Below, one piece after another: positions 7,258 to 31,623 of a DNA stretch of 64,000 bases. Both the position numbers and the translations under genes were made by a program. The notes beneath the pieces were generated by a model that did no database searches, was not told the origin of the DNA, and worked only from the letters and a program-made list of their open reading frames with translations. Where the stretch lies: assembly GCA_951406725.2 (NCBI GenBank), contig OX597833.1:28830001-28894000 (forward strand), read 5' to 3'. The stretch's first letter is position 1, and each line of letters begins with the position of its first letter. This DNA is from Octopus vulgaris. Lineage: Eukaryota.

Positions 7258-7671
7258 TTATTATTTTCTTTCACTTGTTTCAGTCATTTGACTGCGGCCA
7301 TGCCGGAGCACCTCCTTTAGTCGAAGAAATCGACCGCAAGATTTCTTCTTTGTAAACTTAGTACTTATTCTATCGGTCTCTTTTGTCGAGCCGCTTGTTA
7401 CGAGGGCGTAAACACTCCAACGTCGGTTGTCAAGCAGACATACAAATACATACATACATATATATATATATATATATATATATATATATATATATATATA
7501 TATATATATATATATATATATATATATATACGGCGGGCTTCTTTCAGCTTCCATCTAGCAAATCCACTCACAAGTCTTTGGTCTGCCCGAGGCTATAGTA
7601 GAAGACATTTGCCCTAGGTGCCACGCAGTGGGACTGAACCCGGAACCATGTGGTTGGGATGCAAGCTTCTT
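7258..7671 (-). mobile_element. tRNA-derived SINE family A, body and 3' part; the head lies at 11111-11146
   Basis: Reverse complement matches the intact copy at 58513-58880; sequence breaks at gcaagcttctt (7661-7671). Confidence 0.85.
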
Positions 7672-7707
7672 CATTTCAAAATATTGGCTATTACAGCCTT
7701 ACACAGA

Positions 7708-7778
7708 GGGGACAGCACAAGGTGGGGACAGCACAAGGTGGGGACAGCACAAGGTGGGGACAGCACAAGGTGGGGACA
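7708..7778. repeat. 16-bp tandem repeat (ggggacagcacaaggt) x4 in the retroelement 3' UTR
   Basis: Directly visible. Confidence 0.9.
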
Positions 7779-8879
7779 CAAAAAAACAAAACGAATGAAA
7801 GGATGAATTAAATATAATGAAAGATGGAATGAAGCCGCTCGGCCCCCACCTTCGAGCGACTTCATTGAACCTGTTAATACAACCTATTAATACAACTTTT
7901 TTTAAACACTAGTTTGTAATACCATTATTGGCGACAGCTAATTACCATCCCTCCAAAGGATGTTTACACTATGCTTGTTTAAAATGTTATAAAAACTTAC
8001 TTGTTCAGGCATTGAGCTGGTGTCCAATTTCTTGACCCACCACTCATAGCCATGGTTTTCCTCATAGTCCTTTAATCTCGACATATATTCTGGGCCTACC
8101 ACTACACAGCGAATTTGCTCGGGCACCCCCAATACTCCTGATATATCCACTTTTATAACACTGTCCCACGAGTCTATTTCGGTATACAGTTTTTCATTTT
8201 CTCCACTGTACCATATAACATGTCTTTTCCAAGGGCAAGGGTGGGGAAATTTAGGGCTCCTGTGTGCTTGTGTTTGTCGTCATGTCAGGTGGAGCATGGA
8301 GAGGGTTGGAATCTCTAAAGAGTGGTTGGGGTAGCGTGGGTGTGGGTGGGAGTCGGACGGATGTGGGATGGGGGTCGTCATTTACAACACGTGTTCTCTT
8401 TTTTCGCTCTCTTCTCTTTTTTCCCGCCGTTTCCCATCCCTTCTTCACCTCCTCTTCTTCGACGCTGGTACTGGTTTTTGTCTGTGGTGCAGCTTCAATT
8501 CCCTTCTTACTCTCGTGCTTCTCTTCAGCCTCCATGGGTGGTGGAGGACCAGTTTCCTTTTCTTTCTCGTGCTTCTCTCTGGCTTTCACGGGTGTGTGTA
8601 TGTGTGTGTGTGTGTGTGTGTGTGTGTGTGTGTGTGTGTGTGTGTGTGTGTGTGTGTGTGTGTTTTAAAAAAGCCCACTCCAGTTTGTAAATGTTCTGGG
8701 ATTTTGCAACTGACCTCCAAAGCATGTAGACATGCTGAACTGAGGACCATACACGACACACAAGCGTCTTGTAACACATCAGCAGGAAACATTAGTTCAG
8801 ACATATTTCATTATGGCTGAAAACAATAAAGGAGTAAAACTGAACGAACATAATGGATGATGCAAAGACATTCAAGGAA

Positions 8880-9265
8880 TCTCTCTATATATAAACGGCA
8901 AAATGTCTGTGTGTGTGTGTATCCTTTATACAAATCCACAATTTTTCAGTTAGAGGGCTCGCACCTTCTATGGTCATTCAAAACCGTCCAAGAGTGGTCG
9001 TGCACATCTTTACATTTCCCCAGTCACCCCGCAAAGCCATTCAAAAATCAATAGAAGTGACTTTTTGTGAATTTTCTATCCAAAACCCAATCAAAATGCC
9101 CGAAACTTAATACGCCAATTGAATGCCAACTAGCTGTATGTGATTGGTCGGAGATTTGGACAGTACTCGCGTGTATGTGCGCACGCACGCAGCTGTATAT
9201 GCATGCGCTAGCACTATGACCCGGCCTTGCCGGGTCATAGTGCTAGCGCATGCATATACAGCTAG
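8880..9265 (+). mobile_element. Non-autonomous Helitron
   Basis: 5' TC, 3' hairpin (acccggc ctt gccgggt) and CTAG end. Inserted between A and T with no TSD: the uninterrupted paralog near 5810-5835 (minus) reads aggaa|tatttaataaatactgaa. Confidence 0.75.
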
Positions 9266-9380
9266 TATTTAATAAATACTGAAATAATAGTGCTAGTATT
9301 TAATAAATACTGAAATAATAGTGCTAGTATTTAATAAATACTGAAATAATAGTGCTAGTATTTAATAAATACTGAAATAA
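9261..9380. repeat. 31-bp tandem repeat, about 4 copies (gctagtatttaataaatactgaaataatagt)
   Basis: Directly visible; the unit spans the Helitron 3' junction. Confidence 0.9.
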
Positions 9381-29100: not shown

Positions 29101-29529
29101 CATTAAAGTACCCTAATACTACTAAAGTCTTCGACGTCACGAGAAAGTTCTCTAGGCGCCGATAAAAATCAGTTTGGAAACCTCTAGCACAAGGTGCATA
29201 GAGTCCGATCAACCTGAAGGCCTTACTGCTGTATGTCACATCAAGGACGACCAGCCCAACTTCAGGGTCCACATAGACTGTACTTGTCTGCAGAGCCAAG
29301 CCTTTACGGATCAGTACCACTACCCCGCTCGCCCTCCGCTCTGGCCAGGAGACATGATTTTCTCGTAGCCATTCAGGAGAGACGAGAAGGTTTGTAGACC
29401 GTCCAGCTTGGTCTCTGTAGCAACCATCACATGCATATCATGTGATCTAAAATCGTCGAGGAAACACGCCTGCTTCCACTTCGAACTCAGACCACGCACA
29501 TTCAAACAACCAAAGTTAAGTGAGTCCGT
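26174..29529 (-). pseudogene. Tx1 ORF2: APE endonuclease, reverse transcriptase and C-terminal CCHC-like domain
   Basis: LNVRGL, ATETKL, GLYAP, SYLDRI, YTDHRMV, GPGYWKLN, NFRPITLLN, DQSKAFDRVDH, SVRQGCPLSPLLY, AYADDI, C-P-R-C...HAFVEC; multiple frameshifts; the probable start codon reads ACG. Confidence 0.9.
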
Positions 29530-29552
29530 TTACAGAAAGTAAAAAGTTCTAC

Positions 29553-30957
29553 TTACTTTCTCCTCGGAGAAGCTGGGGCCGACTTCACCACACGTGGATC
29601 AACCTCTTCCTTCGCATAATTTGGAAGTTCGTTAATTTTCCAAATGGCGTGCGGGTTCCTTCCCTTTAAGTCGCGGTACAGGGTTTCCCCTATTGCTGCA
29701 CATCTCCGCGCCAGTCCTTCATGTTGGATATAAAGTTTTGACCTCAGATGTGTCACAATGGCTTCGTTTGTATATTGTTCAGTAGTGTCGTATTCGACAA
29801 GCATCCAATTTTCCTCTTTTTCTTCCGGGGTGGTTGGGCGGGATTTCTTTTTTAGTGCCTTTTGTGTATTGTTTTGGTTTTATTTTTTTTATAGGAGATA
29901 TGGTTGGGGAAGGTTTTCTTTTTCGAGGTGTTTTAAATCCACCCTCTGATACCTCCATGGTATCGTCTGAGGGGGTTAACGTCTGTAGGGGTAACACTTT
30001 TTGGAGCAGTCAGTGCCACAGCTTCCAAGGGTATGGGTGTTTTTATATTTGTAGGGGTTTGTGCGTGTAGGGGCTGGGTTTTTTTGTCAATTGTTTTGGG
30101 GCTGGCACCACAACAGGGTGAGTGGGGATTTTTTTGTTTGTGGGGTTGGTGTGTTTGCGGGGGTGGGTTTTTTGGTTATTTGAGGGGCCTGGTGTTTGCG
30201 ACAACTTTTTTTTCTTCACAGTCCACTCGAATATGGCCCTTTTTTCCGCATTGGTAACAGGTGGGCTTACGGCATTCCACCTGTACCCTAAGGGCTACAT
30301 TCTCCTCAACGAGCACTCTCTCTGGTAGGACCTGAATGTCCTCGTGTTTCCCTTGAATGTTCGACCCTAACCAATTCTGGGGCGTGGAACTTGTCGTTTG
30401 TAGTATTTTTATTTGGTCCGTCCTATTAAACAGCAGGGCGGCCACCACTTCTTTAGGGTCCACTTCAGGTGGCACTTCATTGATTCTTACACGGGACGTT
30501 CTTCGTCCCATATAAGTTGGCAGAAGTACTACTTCTTTGGACTTCAGGGGACACACGGAATGCCCGCGGGCCACCTCTTCCTTTGAGAATTGGACCTCAA
30601 CAGAACCATATGCCCGTCCCTTCGAGATATACACTATATCCCTCCATATCGGGGAAGGCACTTTTTGATTGTTTCTTTTTCGAAGTATTTAAACCTTTTG
30701 TCTTGAGGGCAGAAGGTTTTATACACTACGGTCTGTTTCTCTGTTTCTAACACAGTGGAGGACGGTGATATCACAACATCACCTCCCTCTTCCTTCATCC
30801 TTTTAAAATATCCCTGCAACATGTCTACCGAGATATCAATATTTTCGGTTGCCACTACGGCAACTGCCGAAAACTTTTTCACAGTGTTGACACAATTGCC
30901 AACATCAACATTGCTCTCTACAAGAGCAGATTTTTCATGAATGATTTCAACCGACAT
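29553..30957 (-). pseudogene. Tx1 ORF1 (gag-like, CCHC zinc knuckle), frameshifted
   Basis: ORF pieces 30634-30957, 30176-30661 (LLPTYMGRR; CYQCGKKGHIRVDC), 29779-29997 and 29553-29804. Confidence 0.85.
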
Positions 30958-31584
30958 GGTTGAAATAAGTATAATTCAAGAGAAAAGGTTTTCCTCTCGC
31001 AGAGGACAAAAATAATCAATTTGCATTACCGCAGTCTAAAGTTCAAATCCCACCCCCGATGAGGGGGGAGACGTATCAACAAAGTCTACAACGTTCGAAA
31101 TTAATTTTTCCATACAATAATGAAATATAGAATCCCCAAAAAGGGAAACCTATATCTTTTCCTCACAACGAGGACAACAGTTCAGATCTCACCCGCGCTA
31201 CGGGCGGATGCGACACTAGAGCCTACAATGGCTAAAATTTAATTTTTTCCACAATAATAATTTGCTCATCTCAAAAACGGGAAGCCTATAATATTTTTCC
31301 CTTTAATGAGGATAACAGTTCAAATGCCACCCCCGCTGGGGGCGGGGCACGACAATAAAGCCTACAACGGCTTTAACAAGTTCAATATTAATAATATTAA
31401 TAAATTCAATATTAATAATTTCAATATTTCAACAATTACTTTCTCCCGTCACCGGGAAAAAGCACAAAAATTTTCAAAGTTCACGAAAATATTCAACAAT
31501 AATTATTCAACAATAGAAAAATTATCCACGTGCAACAACACGTTTGACTCACCGCCAAAAAAAGACGTCTGTCTTCGACAAAGG

Positions 31585-31623
31585 TTAAGCAAGCTACTTA
31601 CCACACAGCCACTGCTGCGCCTA
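31585..31623 (-). mobile_element. Displaced 5' head (A box) of SINE family A
   Basis: ttaagcaagctacttaccacacagccactgctgcgcct. Confidence 0.85.

What the first reader, a model, noticed from the sequence alone, without database searches (positions are those of the whole stretch)
7258..31623. Tx1-clade retroelements that target the tRNA-derived head of a SINE (two independent hits at the same position)
Seen: two separate SINE-A copies break at the same point, just 3' of the A box. Copy 1 breaks at 7671 and resumes at 11111, with duplication gatgcaagcttctt/gaagcaagcttctt. Copy 2 breaks at 23914 and resumes at 31585, with duplication ttaagcaagctactt. The intact copy at 58513 shows the empty site (gtggt|aagtagcttgct). 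All inserts are co-oriented with the SINE and carry related ORF1s. Established: Tx1-clade APE LINEs are often sequence-specific (Keno in U2, Mutsu in 5S, Dewa in tRNA arrays, Tx1L in a DNA transposon). Inference: this lineage uses an abundant SINE as a safe-harbour target and disables it by separating the A and B boxes. I know of no description of this in cephalopods but cannot search.
Basis: partly seen in the sequence, partly recalled or inferred. Interest (0 to 1): 0.9.

Follow-up and report, generated by a model that had tools for sequence, protein, structure and literature searches.

The report
Retrotransposons that land inside a SINE
A family of LINE-type jumping genes in this animal genome inserts, hundreds of times and almost always, at one exact base inside the head of another very abundant short mobile element (a SINE), which adds a new kind of landing site to the known site-specific retrotransposons.

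Summary
Confirmed, and genome-wide. Two SINE copies in the window are split at the same base by three inserts with 14-16 bp duplications. Across the genome 808 of 1,092 element 3'-end motifs are followed directly by the SINE target, and most inspected misses are mutated targets; chance per insertion is about 1e-5 to 2e-4. The lineage comprises APE-RT LINEs (some with unbroken frames) and many ORF1-only dependents that share a 3' hairpin and stack in tandem. A sister lineage in the same genome avoids the SINE (0 of 20); 0 of 93 U2 sites are occupied. The RT groups with U2- and 5S-inserting relatives (Tx1-like; no named reference in the tree). New here: old, middle and young element families sit in different SINE variants, and full-length copies carry donor-type target letters at their 5' end (9 of 9 informative loci). 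Only about 1% of SINE heads are hit, so this is a safe harbour, not SINE control. TE-targeting Tx1 elements are known; I found no SINE target in ten literature searches. The scan's unchecked notes report similar cases in three other genomes. New variant of a known kind.

The parts
7258..7671 (-). SINE copy 1, 3' part (duplication 7658-7671, B-box region, body, tail); old head variant (AAGAAGC type)
   Evidence: 83% to copy 2 body
7672..11110 (-). E1: old ORF1-only element with 3' hairpin; ORF1 remnants 10897-10300 and 9611-9387; internal duplication; foreign insert about 8600-9380; no ORF2
   Evidence: family in genome
11111..11146 (-). SINE copy 1, 5' part with A-box-like stretch and 5' copy of the duplication (11111-11124)
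23501..23914 (-). SINE copy 2, 3' part (duplication 23900-23914)
23915..25948 (-). E2a: 2-kb ORF1-only element with 3' hairpin; same first 28-29 bases as E2b
25949..25963 (-). Third copy of the target duplication, between the tandem elements
25965..31584 (-). E2b: 5.6-kb LINE; ORF1 with zinc knuckle about 30957-29559; ORF2 (APE, RT, zf-RVT) about 29523-26174, broken by stops and frameshifts; 3' hairpin
31585..31621 (-). SINE copy 2, 5' part and 5' copy of the duplication (31585-31599)
58515..58870 (+). Intact SINE copy showing the empty site (target begins at 58537); young head variant
52935..54670 (-). Fragment of a sister LINE lineage (about 50% ORF2 identity), not in the SINE; used as control

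Best explanation
An L1/Tx1-group LINE lineage uses one site in the head of an abundant SINE as its sequence-specific target. Shown: insertion at one base and in one orientation, 14-16 bp duplication, tandem stacking at the re-created site, autonomous and ORF1-only families sharing a 3' hairpin, and donor-type target letters at the 5' end of full-length copies. Inferred (from the known target-primed reverse transcription of APE LINEs): the ORF2 endonuclease nicks the bottom strand at the start of the target and the top strand about 15-16 bases on; ORF2 binds the 3' hairpin of its own or a dependent's RNA and copies it from the nick; the RNA begins a few bases inside the duplicated target, so the cDNA end pairs with the top-strand overhang and fixes the 5' junction, as proposed for R2. 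The SINE serves as a plentiful, dispensable, self-renewing harbour; its A and B boxes are parted in the hit copies, but only about 1% are hit.
For: 30 of 30 best ORF2 hits (own copy included) have the target right after the 3' end, 25 running on into the SINE and 5 into another element (one read by eye). 17 of 20 diverged copies likewise, 3 have lost the 3' end. 808 of 1,092 hairpin motifs are followed by the target, controls 0 and 2; of 20 misses fetched, 10 are mutated or deleted SINE sites, 3 begin like the target, 6 are not this family, 1 is other. E1 family: 23 of 30 loci by script. In 22 young loci the elements are 99.2% alike but the SINE behind them 91.0%. Sister lineage 0 of 20. U2 sites 0 of 93. 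5' copy donor-type in 9 of 9 informative full-length loci; a truncated copy repeats the locus variant on both sides. Hairpin: 90.8% of cells paired, 24 two-sided changes, 0 of 500 shuffles.
Against: No biochemical test of the endonuclease. RNA start is inferred from junctions only. RNAalifold predicted no consensus pair for the hairpin and single folds have z of 0 to -1.2; I named the helix myself and the rows are related. Tx1 placement has ultrafast bootstrap under 95 and no named reference. A few family members are not clearly at the site (4 of 14 true 3' ends among the misses).
Confidence: 0.88

Rival explanations
1. Hitch-hiking: a composite LINE-plus-SINE unit was copied as one piece (3' transduction or chimera), so the shared junction reflects descent, not repeated targeting.
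For: Full-length young copies do carry some target-type letters from the donor at their 5' end.
Against: SINE parts vary far more than the elements (91.0% against 99.2%); upstream SINE heads and flanks differ per locus; truncated copies have locus-specific duplications (L263, L112); many unrelated families, 5'-truncated copies and both tandem orders occur at the site.
Confidence: 0.02
2. The real target is a host RNA gene (tRNA or U2) and the SINE is only a look-alike sink; the lineage came straight from a U2-targeting Keno element.
For: Nearest metagenome relatives with a readable target sit in U2 (6 of 20 scanned) or 5S (1 of 20); the U2 duplication aligns with the SINE duplication at both ends, reached by 0.02% of random window 15-mers (a post-hoc comparison); sister to the U2 clade in the quick tree (SH-aLRT 92).
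Against: 0 of 93 U2 sites occupied; no fetched flank is a tRNA gene by eye; the target 12-mer differs by 3 or more letters from all 35 sampled tRNAs (the sample lacks many isotypes); the careful tree leaves the relation to the U2 clade unresolved; the closest sister lineage is followed by simple repeats.
Confidence: 0.06
3. Targeting is not read by the endonuclease from sequence but comes from tethering to RNA polymerase III factors or open chromatin at the SINE promoter, as for tRNA-gene-associated retroelements (recalled: Ty3, Dictyostelium TRE).
For: The site lies between A-box-like and B-box-like stretches; the youngest family leans to the youngest SINE variant (17 of 25 against 43% of intact heads, p 0.014).
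Against: The re-created 15-bp site between tandem elements, kilobases from the B box or A box, is reused; real tRNA genes are not seen as targets; Tx1-clade target choice is attributed mainly to the endonuclease (PMC4494074, passages).
Confidence: 0.06

Closest known systems
Tx1-Mar, Tx1-9_AMi, Tx1-8_Crp, Tx1-4_AMi (crocodilians) and Tx1 in Tx1D (Xenopus); PMC4494074, passages and part 3 of 5 read
   Same: Tx1-clade LINEs that prefer another dispersed mobile element as target; tandem insertions around a duplication of about 16 bp; non-autonomous riders.
   Different: Targets there are DNA transposons or LTR elements, for Tx1-Mar in two regions; here the target is one base in a SINE head, the lineage has near-identical copies with unbroken frames, and families sort by SINE variant.
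Keno (U2 snRNA) and 5S-inserting Tx1 families; PMC4494074 and PMC4640811, passages
   Same: APE LINE, precise 3' junction in a short RNA-gene-like repeat; relatives fetched here in U2 show a 15-16 bp duplication resembling this one.
   Different: Target is a host gene of low copy number; here U2 is unoccupied and the target has at least 74,034 intact copies. U2-inserted relatives end in poly(A), these in a hairpin plus GAAATA.
R2 elements whose RNA keeps upstream 28S sequence; PMC3774820, abstract only
   Same: Target sequence carried at the RNA 5' end is proposed to anneal to the target and give uniform 5' junctions.
   Different: R2 has a restriction-like endonuclease and an HDV-like ribozyme; Rfam found no ribozyme at two 5' ends here.
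Dada DNA transposons; PMC8869645, passages
   Same: Insert at fixed sites in tRNA genes, around the A box or anticodon.
   Different: DNA transposons; real tRNA genes; the word SINE does not occur in that paper's main text.
ORF1-only 'half-L1' (HAL1) elements (recalled, no call)
   Same: Non-autonomous LINE derivatives that keep only ORF1.
   Different: Not known to me as site-specific; here they share hairpin and target with the autonomous partner.

Membership tests
APE-type non-LTR retrotransposon, L1 group | ORF2 with APE endonuclease, RT and C-terminal zinc domain, behind an ORF1 | tested here: met
   Pfam Exo_endo_phos, RVT_1, zf-RVT; ORF1 zf-CCHC just under cut-off in P0002, over it in the window copy; best solved relative L1 ORF2p, E 8e-67
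APE-type non-LTR retrotransposon, L1 group | Target-site duplication, fixed 3' end, 5' truncations | tested here: met
Tx1 clade | RT groups with named Tx1 families | tested here: inconclusive
   No named Tx1 or L1 sequence was in the tree. Groups with U2-inserted (89/91, unresolved inside) and 5S-inserted relatives (92/95); U2 clade as sister at SH-aLRT 92
Tx1 clade | Sequence-specific insertion into a multicopy target (Kojima's criterion: over 20% of flanks, PMC4494074) | tested here: met
   at least 808 of 1,092 (74%) exact; 30 of 30 best hits
Tx1 clade | Endonuclease itself cuts the target | not testable with these tools
   needs a nicking assay
Keno | Insertion in U2 snRNA genes | tested here: not met
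   0 of 93 U2 sites occupied (pattern needs A or T ten bases upstream)
tRNA-gene-targeting elements (Dewa; recalled) | Insertion in or between real tRNA genes | tested here: not met
   flanks are SINE or sister elements; target absent from 35 sampled tRNAs; the sample is incomplete
tRNA-derived SINE (the target) | tRNA-related head with A and B boxes | tested here: inconclusive
   no ARAGORN or Rfam hit; best alignment to tRNA-Lys-like genes, z up to 6.7, mainly in the B-box arm; box consensus recalled
SINE-LINE partner pair (target SINE with this LINE) | Shared 3' tail | tested here: not met
   SINE body has no blastn match inside the elements; a different SINE shares the tail

The most novel reading that the evidence does not exclude
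A LINE lineage that tracks a moving target: as the SINE head changed from one variant to the next, successive LINE families shifted preference with it, helped by the piece of target that each element carries at its RNA 5' end, while feeding a crowd of ORF1-only dependents. This would be a dated, in-genome record of target-specificity evolution between two retroposons, possibly starting from a U2-like recognition sequence.
Probability: 0.35. Interest if true: 0.8.

Novelty: new variant of a known kind. Interest (0 to 1): 0.62.

Why it matters
Known strict targets of site-specific LINEs are host RNA genes, microsatellites, telomeres, DNA transposons and LTR elements. A SINE head is a target that itself multiplies and changes, so the families preserved here (old, middle, young, plus a non-targeting sister) let one ask which endonuclease residues and which RNA ends set a 15-base specificity, a long-standing question for APE LINEs and one of interest for targeted insertion. 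It also matters for repeat annotation: hundreds of SINE copies are split and stacked with trains of elements. It does not look like a means of SINE control.

Tried and rejected
Exact 21-base 5' terminus: only 3 hits, 2 in the window; 5' ends differ by family, so it is a poor probe. Rfam and ARAGORN on the SINE head: nothing meaningful. A pattern for an intact old-variant head found none among fetched loci. ARAGORN on 60 of 80 metagenome loci: no tRNA. Ribozyme at 5' ends: none by Rfam on two ends. RNAalifold: no consensus pair. Cluster look-up and Atlas gave no Tx1 name. Sequencing runs: no RNA holder listed; contigs of four runs cover the element but cannot show start or expression. Direct U2-to-SINE shift: not supported by the careful tree or the sister lineage; kept as a minor rival. 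Composite promoter (initiator in the SINE, downstream element in the LINE): RGACG falls at positions 29-30 or 57-59 from the target start in 45 of 56 motif hits, many from near-identical copies; PMC4748587 (passages) gives +28 to +32 for such elements in insect LINEs, but the spacing does not fit the young family's inferred RNA start, so it is left as unexplained. Two papers asked for by id were not held (a 2025 survey of site-specific retrotransposons and the Tx1L endonuclease paper); Kojima and Fujiwara 2004 and Repbase were not seen, nor any supplement; any of these may already list a SINE-targeting family.
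Full report
Observation. On the minus strand, SINE copy 1 is split by 7672-11110 with a 14-base duplication (one mismatch), and copy 2 by two elements in tandem, 25965-31584 and 23915-25948, with three copies of a 15-base duplication. The intact copy begins at 58515. All three inserts match an unbroken genomic ORF1; only the 5.6-kb one has ORF2, broken by stops and frameshifts. 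The two loci are independent: no blastn match between the inserts, background alignment scores for 1-kb flanks, different SINE variants.

Genome-wide test. The ORF2 C-terminus found 150 scored matches among 21,801 candidates, 14 with open frames of 1,133-1,150 residues. All 30 best loci, the window's own included, have the target directly after the 3' end; 25 continue into the SINE and 5 into the 5' end of another element (one locus read by eye). Of 20 diverged loci that I picked from the lower part of the list (71-83% identity), 16 are at the site, 1 runs into the SINE after a short deletion and 3 have lost the 3' end. A pattern for the shared 3' end gave 1,092 hits (control 2), and 808 of them are followed at once by the target's first letters (control 0). 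I fetched 20 of the 24 misses among the first 100 rows: 9 mutated SINE sites, 1 SINE body after a deletion, 3 that begin like the target and then differ, 1 other, 4 tails of a different repeat, 2 chance matches. The family of the first insert is at the site in 23 of 30 loci by script, two more by eye; two pairs of these loci are duplicates or one place. Landing on one base and strand by chance is 1.3e-5 per insertion for 74,034 sites and 1.8e-4 for a million.

Controls. A sister lineage with a fragment in the window (about 50% ORF2 identity, joined to the SINE-targeting clade at 100/99) is at the SINE site in 0 of 20 fetched loci (20 of 41 non-self hits); by eye 14 are followed by long trinucleotide runs, 4 by short ones, 1 by none and 1 lacks its end. 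All 93 matches of the U2 site have normal U2 sequence upstream. Hitch-hiking is excluded because 22 young elements are 99.2% alike while the SINE behind them is 91.0% alike, and truncated copies repeat locus-specific letters on both sides.

What the elements are. An unbroken ORF2 has APE, RT and zf-RVT domains, and human L1 ORF2p is its best solved relative. Of 20 metagenome relatives scanned with Rfam (of 80 fetched), 6 lie in U2 and 1 in 5S, the targets of known Tx1-clade families (PMC4494074). A quick tree of 90 rows put the lineage beside the U2 clade (SH-aLRT 92); a careful tree of 54 rows, after I dropped 36 long-branch or redundant rows, left that unresolved (89/91) and added the 5S clade at 92/95. 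No named Tx1 or L1 sequence was in either tree, so Tx1 membership is likely, not shown. Many 1.5-2.7 kb ORF1-only families share the site and a 4-pair 3' hairpin: 90.8% of cells pair and 24 show two-sided changes, above all 500 shuffles and all slid controls (38 distinct ends), although RNAalifold predicted nothing and single folds are weak.

The target. The SINE head gives no ARAGORN or Rfam tRNA hit and aligns best to tRNA-Lys-like genes among 35 distinct sampled tRNAs; the target 12-mer is at least 3 letters from all of them. The SINE does not share the LINE's tail, so it is a host, not a partner. There are 74,034 exact intact heads against 779 exact occupied junctions (both lower bounds, patterns differ), about 1%.

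Two further results. First, families sort by SINE variant. The first insert's family is in the old-looking variant (0 of 23 in the TAAC variant), a middle family in the TTAC variant (0 of 11 TAAC), and the best 30 hits are 17 of 25 TAAC against 43% of intact heads (p 0.014), with none in the AAGAAG variant, which is 22 of the first 100 intact heads by hand count. Timing alone explains the older families; the young family's lean suggests preference but is modest. Second, among 33 young-family loci, 28 are full-length. In all 9 whose 3' duplication is not TAAC, the 5' copy is still TAAC, the donor type; 11 of 28 have one extra T in the 5' copy; the SINE head upstream varies by locus (the fetch was enriched on purpose for non-TAAC loci). 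So the element's own 5' end includes the last 6-7 target letters. I infer an RNA that starts inside the duplicated target and pairs with the cut top strand, as proposed for R2 (PMC3774820, abstract).

Mechanism, by status. Shown: site, orientation, duplication, tandem reuse, shared hairpin, donor-type 5' letters, low occupancy. From established knowledge: target-primed reverse transcription and endonuclease-set specificity. Inferred: nick positions, hairpin recognition in trans, RNA start, safe-harbour benefit. Untested: loss of SINE transcription in hit copies.

Comparison and novelty. Tx1 families that target other mobile elements are described (PMC4494074: passages and part 3 of 5), with DNA transposons and LTR elements as hosts. 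Ten full-text searches and passages of PMC4640811, PMC8869645, PMC3747384, PMC13282606 and PMC8967140 showed no SINE-targeting LINE; the two cephalopod papers list L1-Tx1 families without targets. The library lacks most subscription papers and Repbase, and no supplement was read. The scan's own unchecked notes describe similar cases in three other genomes and none in this one, which suggests a recurrent habit but is not evidence. Verdict: real, strict, recently active, a new variant of a known kind.

Noticed in passing
window 19025-19403 (-), 22995 (+), 44171 (+); loci L014, L021, L059, L120: A second SINE family ends in a tail whose first 26 or so bases match the LINE 3' UTR and whose hairpin resembles the sister lineage's; a likely partner SINE of this LINE group. 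Of 39 tails printed, 1 sits at the SINE target (L120); many are followed by fixed points of their own family, giving tandem trains.
   Followed up: partly
window 52935-54670 (-); loci L278-L297: Sister LINE lineage followed mostly by ATT-type trinucleotide runs: a microsatellite target or self-made tails, not told apart.
   Followed up: partly
5' ends in L034, L048, L056, L057, L063, L064, L101, L104 and window 31584: RGACG recurs at positions 29-30 or 57-59 from the target start in unrelated families; the young family's 5' end holds a relic of an older target copy 29 bases in, as if 5' ends grew by steps. Unexplained.
   Followed up: partly
L110 (G000:C2:145513206-145522900): A train of at least three elements at the site, followed after the last duplication by the head of a third, tRNA-like short repeat instead of the SINE remainder.
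   Followed up: no
L095, L268, L070: Trains of four ORF1-only elements (L095) and mixed autonomous and non-autonomous trains in either order, each joined by one target copy.
   Followed up: partly
L187 (metagenome locus): A U2-inserted relative has a 36-base repeat of upstream U2 sequence at its 5' junction, suggesting that it too carries target sequence at its RNA 5' end.
   Followed up: no
L274-L276 and element 3' ends: The elements' 3' hairpin resembles the first stem of U2, which lies at a similar distance upstream of the U2 insertion site; may be chance.
   Followed up: no
window 34112-34975 (+), 49095-49900 (-): Two mariner-type transposase remnants (Pfam Transposase_1).
   Followed up: no
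window 8600-9380: Foreign insert inside the first element: 192 bases 96% like window 5422-5613, a palindromic stretch at 9191-9263 and short tandem repeats at 9261-9380.
   Followed up: no
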